Origin: Chiloscyllium plagiosum
Lineage: Eukaryota
Length of the DNA stretch: 52,373 nt
NCBI RefSeq assembly: GCF_004010195.1
Contig: NC_057754.1
Span: forward strand, 8,294,360-8,346,732
Direction of reading: 5' to 3'
Positions 3,176 through 50,769 of this stretch are shown here, in pieces; position 1 is the stretch's first letter; each line of letters starts with the position of its first letter. The translations under genes and the position numbers were made by a program. The notes under the pieces are model-generated. The model was not told the origin of the DNA, ran no database searches, and saw only the letters and a program-made list of their open reading frames with translations.

Positions 3176-3375
3176 AATGACTGGATGAACAGGAATGCCA
3201 TTATCTGATATCACAGGCCAGTCAGCTCACTCTGATCGATGAGGTTCGGACTCGCTGCGTCATGCAGCACATGGCCCAGATTCAGAGCCCAGGCCGAAGC
3301 AGCAAGCAAGCTCTTCCTTCCTCATCCCGCCACCCACAACGCACATCCCCGTGCTCCTTAACCCTGAGCCAGTGC

Positions 3376-3999
3376 TGCACTGTCGGACAGTCAATGCTGA
3401 GGGAGTGCCACACTGTCGGAGGGTCAGTACTGAGGGAGTGCCACACTGTTGGAGGGTCAGAGCTGAGGGAGTGCCGCACTGTCGGATGGTCAGTACTGAG
3501 GGAGTGCCGCACTGTCGGAGGGTCAGTGCTGAGGGAGTGTCGCACTGTCGGAGGGTCAGTGCTGAGGGAATGGGCACTGTCGGAGGGTCAGTGCTGAGGG
3601 AGAGGGCACTGTCGGAGGGTCAGTACTGAGGGAGCGCCGCACTGTCTAAGGGTCAGTACTGAGGGAGTGGGCACTGTCGGAGGGTCAGTACTGAGGGAGT
3701 GCCGCACTGTCGGAGGGTCAGTACTGAGGGAGTGGGCACTGTCGGAGGGTCAGTGCTGAGGGAGTGGGCACTGTCAGAGGGTCAGTACTGAGGGAGTGCG
3801 GCACTGTCGGAGGGTCAGTGCTGAGGGAGTGCCGCACTGTCGGAGGGTCAGTGCTGAGGGAGTGGGCACTGTCGGAGGGTCAGTGCTGAGGGAGCGCCGC
3901 ACTGTCGGAGGGTCAGTACTGAGGGAGTGGGCACTGTCAGAGGGTCAGTACTGAGGGAGTGGGCACTGTCGGAGGGTCAGTGCTGAGGGAGTGGGCACT
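3376..3999 (+). repeat. 32-33-bp minisatellite (actgtcggagggtcagtactgagggagtgccgc)n
   Basis: About 19 tandem units; 11-aa periodicity in the overlapping spurious ORFs. Confidence 0.95.
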
Positions 4000-4203
4000 C
4001 TAAGTGTGTCTAAACTGAACAGTGGCAGCTGCTCTGTCCTTGCATGTTCCTGCCTCTCCTGCCCCATTCCATAAACCTTTTCTGTCCCTCTCCAAGGCCA
4101 TTGCACCATTCCGAAAGGAAAGAGGAGAAAACACAGTGATGCAGCTTGCCGGGGGGGGGGGGGGTGAGCTGTGATTTGTAAAGGTTTAGAAAACCATCCT
4201 TAC

Positions 4204-4485
4204 AGTTTAGAAATTCAGTTTGAATATTTGTTCAAATGGTGACAAGTTCAGTGTGGGAGTTATGTTGCTGAATAGAGTGCGATGCAAACACCTTTGTCCG
4301 ACTCATCCCTCGGTTTGACTGACTGCTCCTCATTCCTCGAAACCCCCGGATCCGAAATCCGTCTTGCAGAGCGTTCTCAGCATCTGGGGCTGTCACTTTG
4401 TGAATCCGCTCTCTGTGGGCTGAAAAGGGACTGGTGTTCGCCCACGTATCAAAACCATGCCTGCAGGATTCGGGGAAACTTTCAT
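4204..4485 (-). other. Candidate minus-strand (probably non-coding) exon
   Basis: Minus-strand acceptor ttttctttttgtcag (plus 4486-4500) and donor ct|gtaagg (plus 4198-4203) bracket 282 bp of non-repetitive sequence. No transcript evidence. Confidence 0.3.
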
Positions 4486-4679
4486 CTGACAAAAAGAAAA
4501 CTTGCATAATGACTTGCAGTAGAATAATGTTCAGCAAAGAGAGTGTTTCAGCCTGAGGGCTGATGCTCATTCTGACATTTTCTGTAATATTTCTACCGTC
4601 AGTAATTTGCAGTGCCTGGCTGCTTCTGTGTAATTGTTTTACTTATAAATAAATCTGATTGATTAGTTTAACCTGCAGA

Positions 4680-4965
4680 AATCACAGCAGCCAATTTGCA
4701 CACTGCAGGTTCATGGTATATGAAGAAAATTAATTTTCTCCTTCACACCAGGACTGTACCTCAATGGTATATCGTTGGCTGTTCAGCAATTCTGTATTTA
4801 TGTGATATGACTTATAACTGCAAGGTGCACTAGAATACATCAGCTTATCTGTTTTAAGCTGATGTTATTGGAGGTATAAATATTTCCCTCAGACATTGAA
4901 GAGGACGCTAGCAGCTGTACACTCAACAGGTTCTTAGTTCACCTGACAGAGCAAGTCCGGCTCTC
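4680..4965 (-). mobile_element. Degraded SacSINE1/Deu-like SINE body
   Basis: Reverse complement contains aatatttatacctccaataacatcagcttaaaacagataagctg and gtgtgcaaattggctgc, resembling the recalled Deu-SINE body; it runs directly into the 33-bp array. Confidence 0.6.
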
Positions 4966-5259
4966 ACTCTCAACTGACCCTCCGACAGGGCGGCACTCAC
5001 TCTCAACTGACCCTCCCACAGTGCGGCACTCCCTCAATACTGACCCTCCCACAGTGCGACACACCCTCAGTAAAGACCCTCCCACAGTGCGACACACCCT
5101 CAGTACTGACCATCCCACAGTGCGGCAGTCCCTCAGTACTGACCATCACACAGTGCGGCAGTCCCTCAGCACTGACCCTCCAACAGTGCGGCACTCCCTC
5201 AGTACTGACCCTCCCACAGTGCGGCAGTCCCTCAGTACTGACCCTCCCACAGTGCGACA
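4966..5259 (-). repeat. 33-bp minisatellite, inverted relative to 3376-3999
   Basis: (ctcagtactgaccctcccacagtgcggcactcc)n is the reverse complement of the upstream array; it ends at the N gap. Confidence 0.93.
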
Positions 5260-7760: not shown

Positions 7761-8380
7761 TCAATTCGGTGAAACCTTTGAGCTTGCTGTTCTCAGCTCG
7801 TTTGCTGTGAAGGATTAGGATTCACATTTGTGGAGATAGTGGTCCCATCTCCGGACCAGGAAGCCAGCCTATGGGAATGTAGGTTCGGATCCCTCCAGGG
7901 CAGTGACCGTAGTTTTAATCAACCAGATGTGGTTAACTAATGTCGTCAACCCCCCCCGCCCCCCCCACCCTAGTCAGGTTCCCCTGATGTCCCTTCAGGG
8001 CAGAAAATCCACCTCCACTTGACTCCAACCCTGCAGTGACATGGTCATCCTCTCAAATGGCCCGAGCAAACCCACTCAGCACCAGGGGCAACGAGGGTTG
8101 GGCAAGGGGGAGTAGGCCATTCAGTCGCTTCCAGCCTGTTCCGCCATTCAGTGAGATCAGGGCTGACCTGTGGCCTAACACCACCAACCTGCCTCTGACC
8201 CATATCTCTTCATACCTTTGCTGGACAAAGATTTGTGGACGAGAGTTCCAAACCTCTACCACACTTTGTGTTGTAGACGTGCTTCATAATATCTCTCCTG
8301 AATGCTCCGGCCCTAGTTCTCAGACTCGGCCCCCTTCCCGGCTCCTCATTCAAGGGGCTTTGCTGGTCTTACCCGTCATG

Positions 8381-8520
8381 GAGAAAGTGGGGACTGCAGA
8401 TGCTGGAGACCAGAGTCGAAAGGGAGTGTGGGGTGCTGAAAAAGCACAGCAGGTCAGGCAGCACCCGAGGAGCACGAGAATCGACGTTTCGGGCATAAGC
8501 CCTTCATCAGGAATGAGGGC
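8381..8520 (-). mobile_element. PLE-derived terminal repeat, family A, solo arm
   Basis: gagaaagtggggactgcagatgctggagac...gacgtttcgggcataagcccttcatcaggaatgagg, the same arm as in the fold-backs at 23518 and 48946. Confidence 0.85.
8483..8510 (-). ncRNA. Minimal hammerhead ribozyme motif (family A)
   Basis: Minus strand reads CUGAUGA A GGGC-UUAU-GCCC GAAAC GUC: canonical core, 4-bp stem II, palindromic ACGU in place of stem III. Confidence 0.7.
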
Positions 8521-10809: not shown

Positions 10810-10990
10810 AAACCCAGAAACAGAAATTGCTGGAGAAGCTCTGGCAAAGAGAAACAGAGTTAACCTTGCGGGCACAGCGACCCCTCTTTCAGAACTACGG
10901 GAGATCTGAAACCTAGCCAGACCTGCTGAGTTTCTCCAGCAGTTTAACAGTTTTATTTCAGCTCTCCAGCTCCCGCGGCTCTGCATTCCA
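10810..10990. mobile_element. Degenerate PLE-type fold-back remnant (family C)
   Basis: aattgctggagaagctctggc...cagacctgctgagtttctccagcagtt imperfect inverted arms; decayed hammerhead-like agttctgaaagaggggtcgctgtgcccgcaaggttaact on the minus strand. Confidence 0.5.
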
Positions 10991-11446
10991 TTTAAGGGAG
11001 ACATGTTCTGTTTTCTAGCTGCAAGTTTTGTGATTCAGTTGAACGAGTGTGGGCGACGTTCTGAAGTAGGATTGGTTTTCTGTGTCTGAGCCCAGCATTT
11101 TGTTTGTCTTACTGATAACTTCTTAAAGCATTGGGACAAAGTATTTCAGCTGCCTTTATCCAATTTTCTCAAGTTAAACTCCAATTCTGAGAATTAAATG
11201 TTATATACTAAAGTGCACAAATCATGAGTGAGGTATTTGATTAGAATTATTACTGTCACATGTACCGCGGTACAGTGAAACGTTTTGTTTTGCGTGCAGT
11301 GCAGGTAGATCATACCGTACAAAGAGCATCAGGGTAATAGAAAAGAGCGAGGAATGCAATGCTACAGCTGCAGAGAAAGTGCGCAGAGAGTTAGATTAAC
11401 ATTAAATTTAAATGTAGGCTTGCTCGCTGAGCTGGAAGGTTCATTT

Positions 11447-11486
11447 CCAGACGTTTCGTTACCCTACTAGGTAACATCTTCAGTGG
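11447..11486 (-). ncRNA. Minimal hammerhead ribozyme motif (family B)
   Basis: Minus: CCA CUGAAGA U GUUACC-UAGUAG-GGUAAC GAAAC GUC UGG; stem I CCA/UGG and a perfect 6-bp stem II. Confidence 0.78.
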
Positions 11487-11772
11487 GCCTCTGGACGAAG
11501 CATTGCTGAAAATTCCTGCTTTCTATTTATATGTTGGGCTTCTTTGGGTTGGCAATGTCATTTCCTGTGGTGATGTTATTTCCTGTGGTGAAGTCACTTC
11601 CTGTTACTTTTCTCAGGGGGTAGTAGTTGGGGTCTAACTCGATGTGTTTGTTGATAGAGTTCCGGTTGGAATGCCATGCTTCTAGGAATTCTCATGCGTG
11701 TCTCTGTTTGGCTTGACCTAGGATGGATGTATTGTCCCAGTTGATAATTTTCAGCATTGCTTCACCTGAGGC

Positions 11773-11812
11773 CCACTGAAGATGTTACATAGTAGGGTGA
11801 CGAAACGTCTGG
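11773..11812 (+). ncRNA. Minimal hammerhead ribozyme motif (family B)
   Basis: CCA CUGAAGA U GUUAC-AUAGUAGG-GUGAC GAAAC GUC UGG. Confidence 0.72.
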
Positions 11813-11947
11813 ATATGAACCTTGCAGCTCAGCGAGCAAACCTACATCCAGAACTTCAACCTGAGCTACAAATCTTCTCAAAACCCGCGAATTAAATTTA
11901 AAATTTGAGCGGTTCCGGTCATTCTCGCTGAGCTGAAATGTTTGTTT

Positions 11948-11987
11948 TCAGACGTTTCGTCACCCTGCTTGGTTACATCATCAGTGA
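11948..11987 (-). ncRNA. Minimal hammerhead ribozyme motif (family B variant) in a second PLE end fragment (~11923-12075)
   Basis: Minus: UCA CUGAUGA U GUAACC-AAGCAG-GGUGAC GAAAC GUC UGA; stem I covaries to UCA/UGA. Confidence 0.7.
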
Positions 11988-12723
11988 GCCTCCGGTGAAG
12001 TGCTGGGGTTAGTGACCCACTTTCTATTGCTGGGGCTTGGGCTGTAAGGTGGGTGATACAAATCTTCTCAAACATCGCATCCATTCAGAAGTCGAATAAC
12101 AGCGGTCAGGAAGCTGTTCTTGAGTCTATTCATACCTGCAAATAAACGTTTCTCGCCCCTTCCCACTGGACGGGGGTGGAAGAGAGTGTAACCGGGGTGG
12201 GAGGGGTCTTTGATGGTGTTGGTTGCTTGGGGAAATATAGATGGATGGAAGGCTGGTTTGTGTAACAGACTGGGCTATGTTCACCAACTCTCTGTTGCTT
12301 GCAGTGCTAGGAAGGGCAGGCCCCAAACCACACAGGGATGCATCCACACAGGATACCTTCTCGGGTGCCCTGATAAAAATTGGTCAGAGTCCTTGTGGAC
12401 ATGCCGAATTTCCGTAGCCGCCTGAGGAAGTAGAGGTGTTGTGCTTTCTTGACCGTTGCATCGGCGTGGGTGCACCAGGACAGACTGTTGGTGAACATTA
12501 CTCCCAGAACCTCTCGACCATATCCACCTCAGCGCCATTGATGCAGACCAGGATGTGCCCTCCACCTTGCTTCCTGAAGTCAATGATCAGCTCCCTTGTG
12601 GTCACAGCGCGCCCTCTTACAAACATCGCAGTGTTTTCAAAAGCACCGTTTGCTATAAAGTCCACTTGTTACAAATGAATAGGGACTTTTTGACACGGCA
12701 GGTATAAATGTGTCTCCCTGTTA

Positions 12724-17554: not shown

Positions 17555-17685
17555 GCCTGATGAAGGACTTTTGCCCGAAACGTCGATTCTCCTTCTCCTC
17601 AGACGCTGCCTGACTGGCTGTGCTTTTCCAGCGCCACACCTTTTGACTCTGACTCTCCAGCATCTGCAGTCCTCACATTCTCCTC
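17555..17685 (+). mobile_element. PLE family A solo arm with a hammerhead motif at 17557-17584
   Basis: CTGATGA A GGAC-TTTT-GCCC GAAACGTC gattctcc...ctccagcatctgcagtcctcacattctcc; one stem II mismatch. Confidence 0.8.
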
Positions 17686-20984: not shown

Positions 20985-21089
20985 GTAAAAAGGATCCACA
21001 AGCATGGCCCAGGGATGAAGGATTCCGTTGCCGTGGTTAGATTAGGGAAGATATTCTCTCTGGAGAAGAGAAGGTTGGGAGGAGATTTG

Positions 21090-21225
21090 AGGTAAAAACA
21101 ATGACTGCAGATGCTGGAAACCAGATTCTGGATTAGAGTGGTGCTGGAAAAGCACAGCAGTTCAGGCAGCATCCGAGGAGCAGGATCCTGAACTGCTGTG
21201 CTTTTCCAGCGCCACTCTAATCCTG
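21090..21225. mobile_element. Short fold-back of a family A-related PLE end
   Basis: ggattagagtggtgctggaaaagcacagcagttcagg ... cctgaactgctgtgcttttccagcgccactctaatcc inverted arms; flanks gagatttga / gacatttga. Confidence 0.75.
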
Positions 21226-21814
21226 AGACGACATTTGAACAAGGCATTCAAAGCCACGAGAAATCTGGGCCGAAAGGAGAGGGAGGAAGTGTTCCCATTG
21301 GTTGAATGGTGGGGAGTCATATTGAAAGTGGAGTCAATCAGGGCTCTGGGAGCGACCCAATACCCGCTCAAGTGGCGGTTAGGGATGGACAATAACTACT
21401 GGGCCAGCCAGCAACAGTGACATCCCGTGAAATAGTGACAACAGTGTGTCGGATAAAAGAGAACTGACCCTGACCCTCGACCCCAGTGGCCTACGTACCC
21501 TGTTCTGTTTGAAAGCTCAAGCATTCAGGCTCGACCCTATGCTTCCGTAATCGGTGCCAGTTTCATAACCCATGTTGCCAAGTGTTCCTGTCATCCCTGG
21601 GGTTTCAATTATATAGTATGTTGTCAAACGCCATCTGCAAGTTTTGGAGATTAATTATTCCTCTGCCAACTCAATGAAGTGTAGCCACAGTGTTGATAAT
21701 GATATGAGAGCCACACTTCAAGTAAAGTGCTTCGAGACGTCTTGTGGTTATGACATCCACTTAACCCTGCTCTTTCCCCATAGCCATTTCTTCATGACAA
21801 GCATTTATCCATAA

Positions 21815-22945: not shown

Positions 22946-23517
22946 AGTCATCGAGTCACAGCACAGAAACAGACTCTTCAGCACAACGAGTCATAATCCC
23001 AAACTAAACTAGTCCCACCTGCCTACGCTTGGCCCATATCTCTCCGGACCTTTCCAATTCATGTACTTATCTAAATCAGTGAGTCTTGAAAAGGTTTGTA
23101 GCTCAGGTTGAGGTTCTGGATGTAGGTTTGCTCGCTGAGCTGGAAGGTTCACTTTCAGATGTTTCGTCCCCATACTAGGTAACATCATCAGTGCGCCTCC
23201 AGATGAAGCGCCAGTGGTATAGCCCACTTTCTGTTCATATGTTTGGCTTTCCTTAGATTGGTGGTGCCATTTCCTGTGGTGGCGTCATTTCCTATGGTGA
23301 TGTCATGTCCTGTTCTTTTTCTCAGGAGGTGGTAAATGGGATCCAAGTCGATGTGTTTGTTGATAGAGTTCCAGTTGGAATGCCATGCAGACAACAAGCA
23401 AAACTAATGTCATTTACAAAATACCGTGCAAGGACTGTAACAAACACTACATTGGACAAACAGCAGAAAACTAGCCACCAGGATACATGAGCATCAACTG
23501 GCCACAAAAAGACATGA

Positions 23518-23773
23518 GGAGAAAATGAGGTCTGCAGATGCTGGAGATCAGAGCTGAAAATGTGTTGCTGGAAAAGCGCAGCAGGTCAGGCAGCATCCAG
23601 GGAACAGGAGAATCGACGTTTTGGGCATAAGCCCTTCTTCAGGAATGAGGAAAGTTTGTCCAGCAGGACAAACTTTCCTCATTCCTGAAGAAGGGCTTAT
23701 GCCCGAAACGTCGATTCTCCTGTTCCCTGGATGCTGCCTGACCTGCTGCGCTTTTCCAGCAACACATTTTCAG
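23518..23773. mobile_element. Fold-back PLE-derived element (family A) with a 15-bp TSD
   Basis: 109-bp arms 23553-23661 and 23666-23774 with one mismatch and a 4-nt loop; TSD cacaaaaagacatga at 23503-23517 and 23774-23788. Confidence 0.93.
23685..23712 (+). ncRNA. Minimal hammerhead ribozyme motif (family A)
   Basis: CUGAAGA A GGGC-UUAU-GCCC GAAAC GUC; stem I pairing is weak. Confidence 0.68.
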
Positions 23774-23934
23774 CACAAAAAGACATGACCCTCTCTCACT
23801 AGTACCCTTACGTACAGGTAAGGAAGGACACCACTTTGACTGGGACAACACATCCATCCTCAGACAAGCCAAACAGAGACACGCACGAGAATTCCTAGAA
23901 GGATGGCATTCCAACTGGAACTCTATCAACGAAC

Positions 23935-24180
23935 AAGCCTCGGGCGACTGTCTGTGTGGAGTTTGCACATTCTCCCCATGTCTGCGTGGGTTTCCTCCGG
24001 GTGCTCCAGTTTCCTCCCACAGTCCAAAAATGTGCAGGTTAGGTGAGTTGGCCATGCTAAATTGCCCGTAGTGTTCGGTGAAGGGGTAAATGTAGGGGAA
24101 TGGCTCTGGGTGGGTTGTACTTAGGAGGGTCGGTGTGGACTTGTTGGGCCGAAGGGCCTGTTTCCTCACTGTAAGTAACC
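23935..24180 (+). mobile_element. 5'-truncated HE1-like SINE
   Basis: Starts agcctcgggcgactgtctgtgtggagtttgcac; tail gggcctgtttcctcactgtaagtaa. Confidence 0.9.
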
Positions 24181-25047: not shown

Positions 25048-25309
25048 AATCTACAATAGCAGGGTAGTCTCAGGGAAGGAGACCGTGACTTCAGTTGTCA
25101 TAAAAGCCAAAGCCATCTGATTCACTTGAAATAAAGGCAAAATATTGCAGGTGCTGGAGATCTGAAACAAACACAGAGAAAGCTGGAGAAACACAGCAGG
25201 TCTGGCAGCATCTGTGGAGAGAAAAACAGAGTTAACATCCTGAGTTCTTCAGTGTATTTCTGTCTCCAAGATGGCTGAGGAAGAGTTGTATTGGACAAGG
25301 GGTTCATGT

Positions 25310-28462: not shown

Positions 28463-28556
28463 GTCAGAAAGTGTGTGGCGCTGGAAAAGCACAGCCGGTC
28501 AGGCGGCATCCGAGGAGCAGGAGAGTCGATGTTTCAGTCTCAAGCCCTTCCTCAGC
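28463..28556 (-). mobile_element. Degraded PLE family A arm
   Basis: gctggaaaagcacagccggtcaggcggcatccgaggagcaggagagtcgatgtttcagtctcaagcccttcctcag; the hammerhead core is decayed. Confidence 0.7.
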
Positions 28557-43833: not shown

Positions 43834-43945
43834 ATGTACGTTTGCTCGCTGAGCTGGAAGGGTTGGTTTCAGACGCTTCGTCACCATAGTAGGTAACATC
43901 ATCCGTGATCAGTAACATCATCAACCTGAGCTATACATCTTCTCA
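43834..43945. mobile_element. PLE family B end fragment with a decayed hammerhead
   Basis: tttgctcgctgagctggaagg..cagacgcttcgtcaccatagtaggtaacatcatc..tcaacctgagctatacatcttctca. Confidence 0.7.
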
Positions 43946-48477: not shown

Positions 48478-49240
48478 AAATGTGCGCAGTTTTGGGCCCC
48501 ATATCCCAGGAAGGATGTACTGGCCCTGGTGCTCAGAGGAGGTTCACGAGAATGGCCCCAGGAATGAAACAGCTTAACATAGGAGGAACGTTTGAGGTGA
48601 ATACTCGATGGGGTTTCGAGGGATGAGGTGGGGGGGGATCTAATTGATTCAAACAGAATACTGAATGGCCTGGACAGAGTGGATGTTGGGAAGATGTCTC
48701 CTTTGGTAGGAGAGACTAGGACCTGAGGGCACAGCCTTCGAGTAAAGGGAAGACCCTTTAGAACGGAGATAAGGAGAAACGTCTTCAGCCAGAGAGCGGG
48801 GAATCTATGGAATTCACTGCCACAGAAGGCTGTGGAGGCCAGGTCACTGAGTATATTTAAGACGGAGACAGATAGGCTCTTGATTGTCGAGGGGATCAAG
48901 GATTACAGTGAGAAAGCTGGAAACTGAGGTTGAGAAACTTATCAGAGCTGAAAATGTGTTGCTGGAAAAGTGCAGCAGGTCAGGCAGCATCCAGGGAACA
49001 GGAGAATCGACGTTTCGGGCATAAGCCCTTCCTGAAGAAGGGCTTATGCCCGAAACGTCGATTCTCCTGTTCCTTGGATGCTGCCTGACCTGCTGCGCTT
49101 TTCCAGCATCACATTTTCAGCTCTGATCTCCAGCATCTGCAGACCTCACTTTCTCCTGAGAAACTTATCAGCCAGGATTGAATGGTGGAGCTAACCTGAT
49201 GGGCTGAATGGCCTAATTTCTATGTCTCATGGTCTTATGA
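48478..49240 (+). mobile_element. CR1-like LINE 3' fragment, interrupted at 48946-49156
   Basis: gaggaggttcacgagaatg..gggaatctatggaattcactgccacagaaggctgtggaggcc; tail gggctgaatggcctaatttctatgtct resumes after the insert. Confidence 0.88.
48946..49156. mobile_element. Fold-back PLE-derived element (family A) with a 15-bp TSD and a hammerhead motif at 49032-49059 (+)
   Basis: Inverted arms of about 85-90 bp; tgagaaacttatcag duplicated at 48931-48945 and 49157-49171; CTGAAGA A GGGC-TTAT-GCCC GAAACGTC. Confidence 0.92.
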
Positions 49241-49485: not shown

Positions 49486-49630
49486 ACGAACATCCCGTTC
49501 CTGCAGAATGTGCTCAGCAATGACCAGTTTCTGTACGGCGCTGTTGACACTCAATTCATCGACGAGAATCCTGACCTCATCCTCACGAGACCGGTGCAGA
49601 ACCGGGCACAGAAACTGCTCCATTTCCTCG
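49486..49630 (+). CDS. PC: Pyruvate carboxylase internal coding exon (end of biotin carboxylase domain / linker to PT domain)
   Basis: Translates as [48 protein letters not shown](G), matching the recalled vertebrate PC segment [49 protein letters not shown]. Acceptor ccctctgtctttcag ends at 49485, branch-like ttaac at 49457-49461, donor G|gtaaga at 49631. Length 145 bp, phase 0 to 1, as recalled for the human exon. Confidence 0.95.
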
Positions 49631-50769
49631 GTAAGACTCCCCGACCCTCCCCACCCCGGCTCATTCACCCCGTACTCCCACCCCCACCCCCAACCTCACC
49701 AGTTTGCCCTCTCTCGCAATCGCTTCCGGGATTCAGGGACAGGGAGAGGACGGAAACCTTCCGGTCGCAAAGCGGAATTCCAAGGAACGCCGGAGACCAG
49801 GAGAGCGTGGGAGAGGGAGCCGGCAGGATCAGCGAAGGAAGTGCGGAGCCAAGGAGGCAGGCAGAGTGAGGCACACCCACTGACAGGAGGACCGATGGGA
49901 CTAGGATAGACGGGGGCTCACAGAGACCAGCAATTCAGAGATCCCAGAGGATTGAACACGCTGGAGGGGGTGACAGAGATAGGGAGGGGGTGTAGGGGCT
50001 GGAGGGGGTTACAGAGATAGGGGGTGGTGTAGGGACTGGAAGGGGTTACAGGGATAGGGAGGGGGTTTTGGGACTGACAGAGTGAGACCTGGAAAGCCCA
50101 CTCCCCTCTGTACCAGGCGAAGCCACACGAATGGGTTTGGTGAACACGTAAGGAATTCTCATCCCTGAATCCCATCATTGAACCGTTGCTGTGGGTTATG
50201 TCTTTGTGCGAGTTCGGGAAGCTCCCGCGGGCGTACTGAGGCGAAGGATTTGCTGATATATCGAAAGCCTTATCCCTGAGGTGATGTGTACAGGGAACAG
50301 CAACGCCCCCTCTCACCCCCACCCCCACCCCCCCAACCCCCAAAGCTCCTCCTCCATCCCCTGCACTTCCGAAAGACAGGAAACAGGAGCGATTGTGATC
50401 CACTCAGCCCGTCGGGCCTGTGGTAGCGTTCAGTGAGAGTGTGACCTCTCGACCCCACTCCCCCAGTACTGCGAGGTGAGACGAGTTGCTGGTGATGATG
50501 GGAAGGAGCCTGAAACCGATCCACGGAGTCTCATTTGACCTCCGACCGCAGCCGGCTTGCATGTGGGGTTTGCTGCAGTGGTGGGGGGGGGTCAGGAACG
50601 GGGGTACAAAAGCAGGTCAGTGCTGGTTGCCAGAGCGCTGAACTGAAAGCTCCAAAAGTGCTGGAGAGCCTCAGCAGGTCTGGCAGCCTCAGTGGAAAGT
50701 GTCAGAAAACAAGAGTTAACTTCTCAGGTCAAATCCAAGATGGCTCCGGAACAGCCCTTTGACCTTCCC

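What the first reader, a model, noticed from the sequence alone, without database searches (positions are those of the whole stretch)
23503..23788. Young 256-bp fold-back insertion with hammerhead cores in both arms and a 15-bp TSD
Seen: 109-bp arms with one mismatch around a 4-nt loop, plus an unpaired ~35-bp extension on one side. A perfect 15-bp duplication flanks it, and it splits a GIY-YIG reading frame that rejoins exactly across the TSD. Each arm carries CUGAAGA-A-GGGC(UUAU)GCCC-GAAACGUC; the single mismatch (23622) turns the left-arm GAAA into AAAA. Known: Penelope-like elements carry minimal type I hammerheads in their terminal repeats and often insert with an inverted truncated copy. 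Inference: this is a recently active, non-coding, ribozyme-bearing palindromic mobile unit mobilised by PLE machinery, either a distinct non-autonomous family or a stereotyped abortive-insertion product. Stem I pairing in this family is weak, so activity is uncertain.
Basis: partly seen in the sequence, partly recalled or inferred. Interest (0 to 1): 0.72.

Follow-up and report, generated by a model that had tools for sequence, protein, structure and literature searches.

The report
Head-to-head Penelope retroelement stub, shark
This hairpin is a real, fairly recent insertion of two back-to-back tail ends of a very common Penelope-like jumping gene in a shark-type genome, laid down in a pattern already described for this class, so it is ordinary rather than a new kind of ribozyme-carrying element.

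Summary
In detail: 109-bp arms, one mismatch, 4-nt loop, 35-bp one-sided extension, perfect 15-bp TSD. The structure is the published insertion signature of endonuclease-bearing Penelope-like elements (PLEs): an inverted 5'-truncated end, a 30-40-nt 'tail' on one arm, and a minimal hammerhead. The arm is a very high-copy repeat (71,906 contig pieces in one run), and its 3' ends pile up at both ends of the tail. It is not a fixed palindromic family: two other fold-backs of this sequence in the window have different centres, one with a hammerhead core on one arm only and one with none. The interrupted GIY-YIG fragment was already frameshifted and is itself a head-to-head stub of another PLE family. 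In a read-through RNA the hairpin masks both hammerheads. Most likely it is a dead product of two target-primed reverse transcriptions starting at the two tail boundaries. I found no autonomous parent for this family, and cleavage is untested. This scan reported the same pattern several times elsewhere in this genome.

The parts
23503..23517 (.). Left target-site duplication (15 bp), inside the host GIY-YIG coding fragment
   Evidence: single copy in intact relatives
23518..23552 (-). PLE 'tail': 35-nt 3' extension present on the left arm only
   Evidence: family loose ends pile at 23517-23519 and about 23549-23557 (table 7)
23553..23661 (-). Tailed arm: 5'-truncated PLE terminus, sense on the minus strand
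23615..23642 (-). Minimal hammerhead of the left arm; G12 changed to A at 23622 (CpG transition)
23662..23665 (-). 4-nt loop, probably parent sequence belonging to the tailed arm
   Evidence: suggestive only: family depth continues over it (X21 about 70 against 83 in the previous bin, table 2)
23666..23774 (+). Tail-less arm: inverted 5'-truncated copy ending at the inner tail boundary
23685..23712 (+). Intact minimal type I hammerhead motif: core, extra A, 4-bp stem II, no loop III, predicted cleavage after 23712
   Evidence: matches the min-HHR features in PMC4209133
23774..23788 (.). Right target-site duplication (15 bp)
23388..23935 (+). Host: 5'-truncated GIY-YIG fragment of an older PLE family, Penelope/Poseidon-type by my reading; frameshifted near 23462, split by the insertion, cut off at 23935 before a SINE-like repeat (SINE label recalled)
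23083..23388 (-). Host's own inverted, tailed arm with a different hammerhead (core at 23191), so the host is itself a head-to-head PLE stub
48931..49171 (+). Second fold-back of the same family: TSD 48931-45/49157-71, arms 48941-49031/49037-49127, 5-nt loop, tail on the + arm, hammerhead core on one arm only
21076..21238 (-). Third, older fold-back of a related subfamily: no hammerhead on either arm, decayed candidate 15-bp TSD (12/15)
11401..11902 (.). Head-to-head insertion of the host-type family with 12-bp TSD; the tail-less arm is the longer one

Best explanation
The 256 bp is a dead-on-arrival insertion of the terminal (pLTR) segment of a very abundant shark PLE. Steps: (1, inferred from known PLE biology) a PLE RT/GIY-YIG protein nicked both strands 15 bp apart inside an older PLE fragment. 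(2, inferred, by analogy with Anolis Poseidon) each nick primed reverse transcription internally on PLE RNA, one at the outer and one at the inner boundary of the 35-nt tail. (3, shown by sequence) both copies run through the hammerhead cleavage site, so the template was uncleaved. (4, inferred) both cDNAs stopped within about 4-6 nt of each other, probably at a shared RNA 5' end or break, and were joined head-to-head; fill-in gave the 15-bp TSD. (5, shown) one CpG later decayed. The hammerhead is a passenger: in a read-through RNA the 109-bp duplex sequesters it.
For: Published signature: adjacent inverted pLTR with an optional 31-bp tail and 8-10-bp TSDs (PMC3846280 passages); inverted 5'-truncated copy and 30-40-bp tail (PMC8557442 passages); in vitro, the protein cuts and extends both strands, RT starts at two internal sites bounding the tail, and unprocessed RNA is the main substrate (PMC11167929 parts 1-2). 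Family 3' ends with mixed flanks pile at both tail boundaries in 3 of 4 runs; the fourth shows 23517 and 23561-64. Core conservation: 0 of 36 core positions against 33 of 192 non-core positions differ in three older window copies, Fisher p = 0.002. Fold-back centres vary. In two host-type loci (11412-11884, 43834-43945) the tail-less arm reaches further 5' than the tailed arm, which a simple snap-back cannot produce. Copy 2's arms differ at the site matching the family's dimorphic position 23600 (weak). Stem II probability is 0.96-1.0 in the free arm and 0 in the whole insertion.
Against: No RT/GIY-YIG ORF was found linked to this arm family: protein searches with translated arms gave nothing relevant, nor did four DNA pattern scans of microbial and viral collections. 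No genome was held. Its PLE identity therefore rests on architecture, the hammerhead and the neighbouring family. In both young copies the tailed arm is the slightly longer one and the loop is tiny, as a snap-back would also give. Rfam hammerhead models do not hit. The clustering of family 5' ends at the hammerhead edge is not explained by random truncation.
Confidence: 0.82

Rival explanations
1. Same PLE origin, but the second arm is made by snap-back: the first cDNA (tail to 23665) folds on a 2-4-bp microhomology and is copied on itself before joining the second nick. A related self-priming model on an antisense template was proposed by Arkhipova et al. 2013.
For: Loops of 4 and 5 nt; 3-nt microhomology at the centre of copy 2; both arms of copy 1 start at the same point, upstream of the family's usual start, and share all subfamily variants; self-priming is discussed in PMC3846280.
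Against: It does not explain why the short arm stops at the inner tail boundary, which in Anolis is an RNA initiation site. It cannot make the host-type loci whose tail-less arm is longer. Copy 2's arms differ at a family-dimorphic site (weak).
Confidence: 0.3
2. A separately transcribed, SINE-like non-autonomous unit of about 130 nt (hammerhead edge to tail), mobilised in trans by PLE proteins, supplies most copies; the fold-backs are its double-primed insertions.
For: Family depth falls 3.1-4.4-fold between bins 23638-50 and 23651-63 in 4 of 4 runs, and loose ends pile at 23646 in the listed rows of X1 and X21. 4 of the 5 other hammerhead-bearing arms in the window begin at 23642-23650 equivalents; the fifth begins inside the core. 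No parent ORF was found.
Against: Copy 1 extends about 20 nt further upstream, on both arms. [quoted passage not shown] The 90% likeness filter can create part of the depth step.
Confidence: 0.2
3. The whole palindrome is a self-propagating ribozyme-bearing element (MITE-like or retrozyme-like) with a fixed structure.
For: Near-perfect arms, clean TSD, a second similar-sized copy 25 kb away.
Against: Centres differ among three window copies, ends are asymmetric, single-armed copies occur, and no head-to-tail hammerhead tandem of this family is seen in the window. The hairpin masks the ribozyme.
Confidence: 0.04

Closest known systems
Insertion units of EN+ Penelope-like elements: inverted pLTR plus 'tail' (Arkhipova et al. 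2013, PMC3846280; Craig et al. 2021, PMC8557442; passages read)
   Same: Head-to-head inverted 5'-truncated copy, 30-40-nt tail on one end, variable TSD, insertion into another PLE copy
   Different: Both arms are cut down to about 110-150 nt so no ORF remains; the TSD is 15 bp against the 8-10 bp quoted for rotifer copies; the parent ORF and clade were not identified
Poseidon of Anolis carolinensis, PAc (Frangieh et al. 2024, PMC11167929; parts 1-2 of 4 read)
   Same: Hammerhead about 60-100 nt upstream of two preferred 3' ends that bound a tail; copies keep sequence across the cleavage site
   Different: Different family. The ATG in loop II of this hammerhead opens only a short frame ending in the tail, whereas the PAc ORF starts at stem II. 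No biochemistry here.
Minimal hammerheads (min-HHR) of metazoan PLEs (Cervera and De la Pena 2014, PMC4209133; parts 1-2 of 4 read)
   Same: Core boxes, extra base between 9 and 10.1, G10.1-C11.1 pair, palindromic 15.2-16.2 without loop III; that paper also reports pairs of motifs 100-700 bp apart on opposite strands
   Different: Stem II is 4 bp; stem I is at most 2 bp + mismatch + 1 bp; the two cores here are about 45 nt apart
Non-LTR retrozymes of animals (Li et al., bioRxiv 10.64898/2026.07.22.740005; parts 1-2 of 5 read)
   Same: Non-coding, hammerhead-bearing, PLE-related, reported in a chondrichthyan
   Different: Defined by head-to-tail tandem units that each carry a hammerhead; this locus is head-to-head with opposite-strand motifs

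Membership tests
EN+ PLE insertion product | Inverted, 5'-truncated copy adjacent head-to-head | tested here: met
   three loci of this family or a related subfamily
EN+ PLE insertion product | 30-40-nt tail at one end only; two preferred 3' ends | tested here: met
   35 nt in copy 1; loose-end piles at 23517-19 and about 23557 (24 of 1214 rows were shown)
EN+ PLE insertion product | Minimal type I hammerhead in the terminal repeat, core conserved over flanks | tested here: met
   0/36 against 33/192, p = 0.002; only three older copies, picked by blastn
EN+ PLE insertion product | TSD longer than a few bp and not of a fixed sequence | tested here: met
   15, 15 and a decayed candidate 15 bp with unrelated sequences; 12 bp for the host-type family
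EN+ PLE insertion product | Arm is the terminus of an RT + GIY-YIG ORF | tested here: inconclusive
   Not found for this family; no genome held. For the host family, RT-containing proteins exist and some read on into its hammerhead region.
EN+ PLE insertion product | Hammerhead self-cleavage (dimer or protein-assisted) | not testable with these tools
   Needs a bench assay; no pile of molecule ends anywhere table 6, but those libraries are poorly suited
Non-LTR retrozyme | Two or more head-to-tail units each with a hammerhead | tested here: not met
   No same-strand tandem of this arm in the window; the rest of the genome was not examined
Non-LTR retrozyme | Circular RNA made by self-cleavage | not tested
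   No suitable data
MITE / DNA transposon | Identical terminal inverted repeats at both outer ends with a short fixed TSD | tested here: not met
   Ends differ by the 35-nt tail, TSD is 15 bp, single-armed copies occur; typical DNA-transposon TSD lengths are recalled
miRNA precursor (Rfam MIR6136 and others) | Score above the gathering threshold | tested here: not met
   best 73 bits against a threshold of 99; generic hairpin match

The most novel reading that the evidence does not exclude
In this shark PLE family the internal RT start sites of the 5' pLTR are used so often that most genomic copies are 'strong-stop-like' run-off cDNAs of about 95-130 nt ending at the RNA 5' end just upstream of the hammerhead, and head-to-head stubs form when two RTs of a dimer prime at the two tail boundaries. 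The huge copy number would let the open question of how PLEs build inverted pLTRs (two primings or snap-back) be settled from one genome, by comparing subfamily-diagnostic bases between paired arms.
Probability: 0.3. Interest if true: 0.5.

Novelty: new member of a known kind. Interest (0 to 1): 0.2.

Why it matters
As a single locus it matters little: it is one of a very large number of PLE stubs. It is a clean example of the inverted-pLTR-plus-tail signature nested in another PLE stub, and a warning that such hairpins mimic MITEs and miRNA precursors in annotation. The family as a whole could help with the unresolved mechanism of PLE inversion, because arm pairs record whether one or two RNA templates were used. 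If the locus lies in the pyruvate carboxylase pre-mRNA, it would add a 109-bp dsRNA that could be edited or diced; there is no evidence for that here.

Tried and rejected
Whole-genome analysis was impossible: no G000 is held. Search for the autonomous parent: exact-pattern scans of metagenome (2), viral (1) and prokaryote genome (1) collections all gave 0 matches; protein searches with translated arm frames gave 0 hits and 2 hits that are unrelated repeat proteins. These blanks are weak, since the collections hold little shark DNA. Rfam finds no hammerhead even on the single arm; the miRNA hits are generic hairpin scores. Pfam does not recognise the short GIY-YIG pieces. Expression: no RNA holder was listed as such; RNA reads laid on the arm come mostly from other copies (57 of 2022 are 99% alike or better, 93% run on unlike), so they say nothing about this locus. 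Insertion polymorphism could not be judged: no listed piece spans the junction. Only one pyruvate carboxylase exon (49486-49632) was detectable in the window with a bacterial homologue, so the intronic position is inferred, not shown. The Lunse et al. dimer-cleavage paper was not held; I saw it only as cited in PMC6765202. Literature searches for shark PLEs, twin priming in PLEs and palindromic non-autonomous PLEs showed no listing devoted to this family; subscription papers, Repbase and Dfam were not searchable, and no supplements were read.

Full report
Observation. The arms 23553-23661 and 23666-23774 are 109 nt long with a 4-nt spacer, and a 15-bp direct repeat lies at 23503-23517 and 23774-23788. 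The only arm mismatch is at 23622. As RNA the region folds at -238.8 kcal/mol, z = -31, and none of 200 shuffles folds as well. The 35 unpaired bases 23518-23552 continue the left arm on the minus strand: the same bases follow the arm in copies at 49128-49156, 8380 and 17683. Both arms read outward from the centre in hammerhead sense, so the arrangement is head-to-head.

Context. No whole genome is held. The interrupted frame matches proteins named from Stegostoma, Hemiscyllium and Chiloscyllium (9 hits among 10 candidates); 2 of the 5 that I scanned hit RVT_1, one of them above the curated cut-off. The host is therefore the GIY-YIG end of an RT-bearing PLE in a carpet-shark-like genome; the Penelope/Poseidon label is my reading of its motifs, from recall. 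Intact relatives carry the target motif once, which confirms the empty site and the TSD. The host was already dead: it is 5'-truncated at 23388 and lacks one base near 23462 that family reads carry (table 4). It is itself a head-to-head stub, with an inverted tailed arm at about 23083-23388 and a different hammerhead at 23191. One pyruvate carboxylase exon lies at 49486-49632 on the + strand. No upstream exon was detected in the window, so the locus may sit in a long intron of that gene; this is inferred.

The arm is a mass repeat. Laying four runs on 23300-23665 at 90% likeness placed 71,906, 46,430 and 9,822 contig pieces and 2,022 raw RNA reads on the stretch, with depth over the arm up to some tens of times that over the host (for X1 not everything was counted, and summed contig depth is no copy number). 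Loose ends with mixed flanks pile at 23517-23519 and at about 23557 in X1, X4 and X21 (X15: 23517 and 23561-64); 24 of 1214 rows were shown. These are the two ends of the 35-nt extension. The literature calls this the PLE tail: a 30-40-bp extension at one end of units that often carry an adjacent inverted 5'-truncated copy (PMC8557442 passages; PMC3846280 passages). In vitro the Anolis Poseidon protein cuts and extends both target strands and starts reverse transcription at two internal RNA sites that bound the tail, using mainly uncleaved RNA (PMC11167929 parts 1-2).

It is not a fixed palindromic family. Blastn finds five further clear loci of the arm in the window, plus weak remnants at 25182, 50659 and 10916 that I did not analyse. 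The copy at 48931-49171 is also a TSD-bounded fold-back (15 bp), but its arms start at 23645 and about 23636 in copy-1 coordinates, its loop is 5 nt with a 3-nt microhomology, and its short arm lacks the CUGA box. An older copy at 21076-21238 folds back downstream of the hammerhead and has none. Copies at 8380-8518, 17556-17683 and 28467-28555 are single-armed. The joints listed also fall at many positions. So each palindrome appears to be built at insertion, and hammerheads in both arms is a property of this copy only.

Hammerhead. The + arm has the minimal type I form described for metazoan PLEs: core boxes, an extra base before stem II, a G-C closing pair, and palindromic positions 15.2-16.2 with no loop III (PMC4209133 parts 1-2). 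A strict descriptor gives 5 sites in the window against 0.03 expected. In three older window copies 0 of 36 core positions differ from the young arm, against 33 of 192 other positions (p = 0.002); the sample is small and the copies were chosen by blastn. Rfam's models do not detect the motif. Stem II forms in the free arm (0.96-1.0) but stem I does not (below 0.001), and in the whole insertion stem II falls to 0 because the long hairpin takes over. The two motifs are on opposite strands, so one transcript never holds two sense copies for the dimer that such motifs are thought to need (review passage). Both arms extend across the cleavage site, so the template RNA had not been cut, unless it had been re-ligated. 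The G12-to-A change is a CpG transition, and 10-26% of family depth also lacks the C.

Age. The arms differ at 1 of 109 pairs and the TSD is perfect. The window's base at 23656 is shared by about half of the depth in organism A runs but under 0.5% in organisms B and C, so the source subfamily seems restricted to one lineage; the window's species is not known, and the best runs hold only 0.72 of its words. At 7e-10 per base per generation (PMC10587355 passages) one change in 218 bases means about 6.6 million generations, range 0.17-37, less for a CpG. It is young for this genome, but current activity is not shown.

Mechanism. I favour two target-primed reverse transcriptions, one from each nick, starting at the outer and inner tail boundaries and joined head-to-head. 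For: the short arm stops at the inner boundary; in two host-type loci (11412-11884 with a 12-bp TSD, and 43834-43945) the tail-less arm extends further 5' than the tailed arm, which snap-back cannot give; and copy 2's arms differ at the site equivalent to 23600, where the family is dimorphic, though one site of three differences is weak evidence. Against: in both young copies the loop is tiny and the tailed arm is the longer, as snap-back predicts, and copy 1's arms start together about 20 nt upstream of the usual start; self-priming has been proposed. Two cDNAs running off the same RNA end would reconcile these points. One feature goes beyond random truncation: depth falls 3.1-4.4-fold just 5' of the hammerhead in 4 of 4 runs, loose ends pile at 23646, and 4 of 5 other hammerhead-bearing arms in the window start at 23642-23650. 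This could be run-off at a transcription start (in D. virilis the start lies in the pLTR shortly before the motif) or a short non-autonomous transcript. The likeness filter may inflate the step.

What is missing. I could not tie this arm to an RT/GIY-YIG ORF, so the parent and its clade are unknown. Expression of this locus, polymorphism and cleavage are untested.

Comparison and verdict. It works like, and on four tested features is, a PLE insertion product; it fails the tests for tandem retrozymes, MITEs and miRNA precursors. Earlier notes of this scan reach the same reading for other pieces of this genome, including the pile-up at the hammerhead edge. I had written my reading and the pile-up idea before seeing them, and they are not independent support. 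New member of a known kind; interest 0.2.

Noticed in passing
window 23548-23566 and 23515-23533 (minus strand): The two preferred 3' ends are each preceded by a similar short motif (CATTTTC) about 36 nt apart, and the region folds into a modest stem-loop (z not significant); a possible RT initiation signal.
   Followed up: partly
window 48994 against 23600: Copy 2's two arms differ at a family-dimorphic site, hinting at two different RNA templates for one insertion.
   Followed up: partly
window 11401-12028: Cluster of host-type PLE stubs: a head-to-head unit with a 12-bp A/T-only TSD and an adjacent third arm, with three hammerhead cores.
   Followed up: partly
window 43834-43945: Host-type arm without tail joined head-to-head to a 25-nt piece consisting only of tail sequence; no clear TSD.
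   Followed up: partly
window 49486-49632 (+): Pyruvate carboxylase exon (human residues 456-505); the only exon of that gene detected in the window, implying a very long upstream intron or exons in N gaps.
   Followed up: partly
window 23735-23775 (+): The sense arm holds several pyrimidine-tract/AG motifs that look like 3' splice sites, in the same orientation as the pyruvate carboxylase exon; possible cryptic splicing.
   Followed up: no
window 25182-25212, 50659-50690, 10916-10970: Weak matches to the middle of the arm, probably old related PLE subfamilies.
   Followed up: no
window 3364-5259: 33-bp-period minisatellite present in both orientations next to an N gap.
   Followed up: no
P0001, P0002, P0003, P0007: Several shark gene models (CUEDC2, MAP3K7 isoforms and others) end in exonised GIY-YIG sequence of the host PLE family; possibly annotation artefacts.
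   Followed up: no
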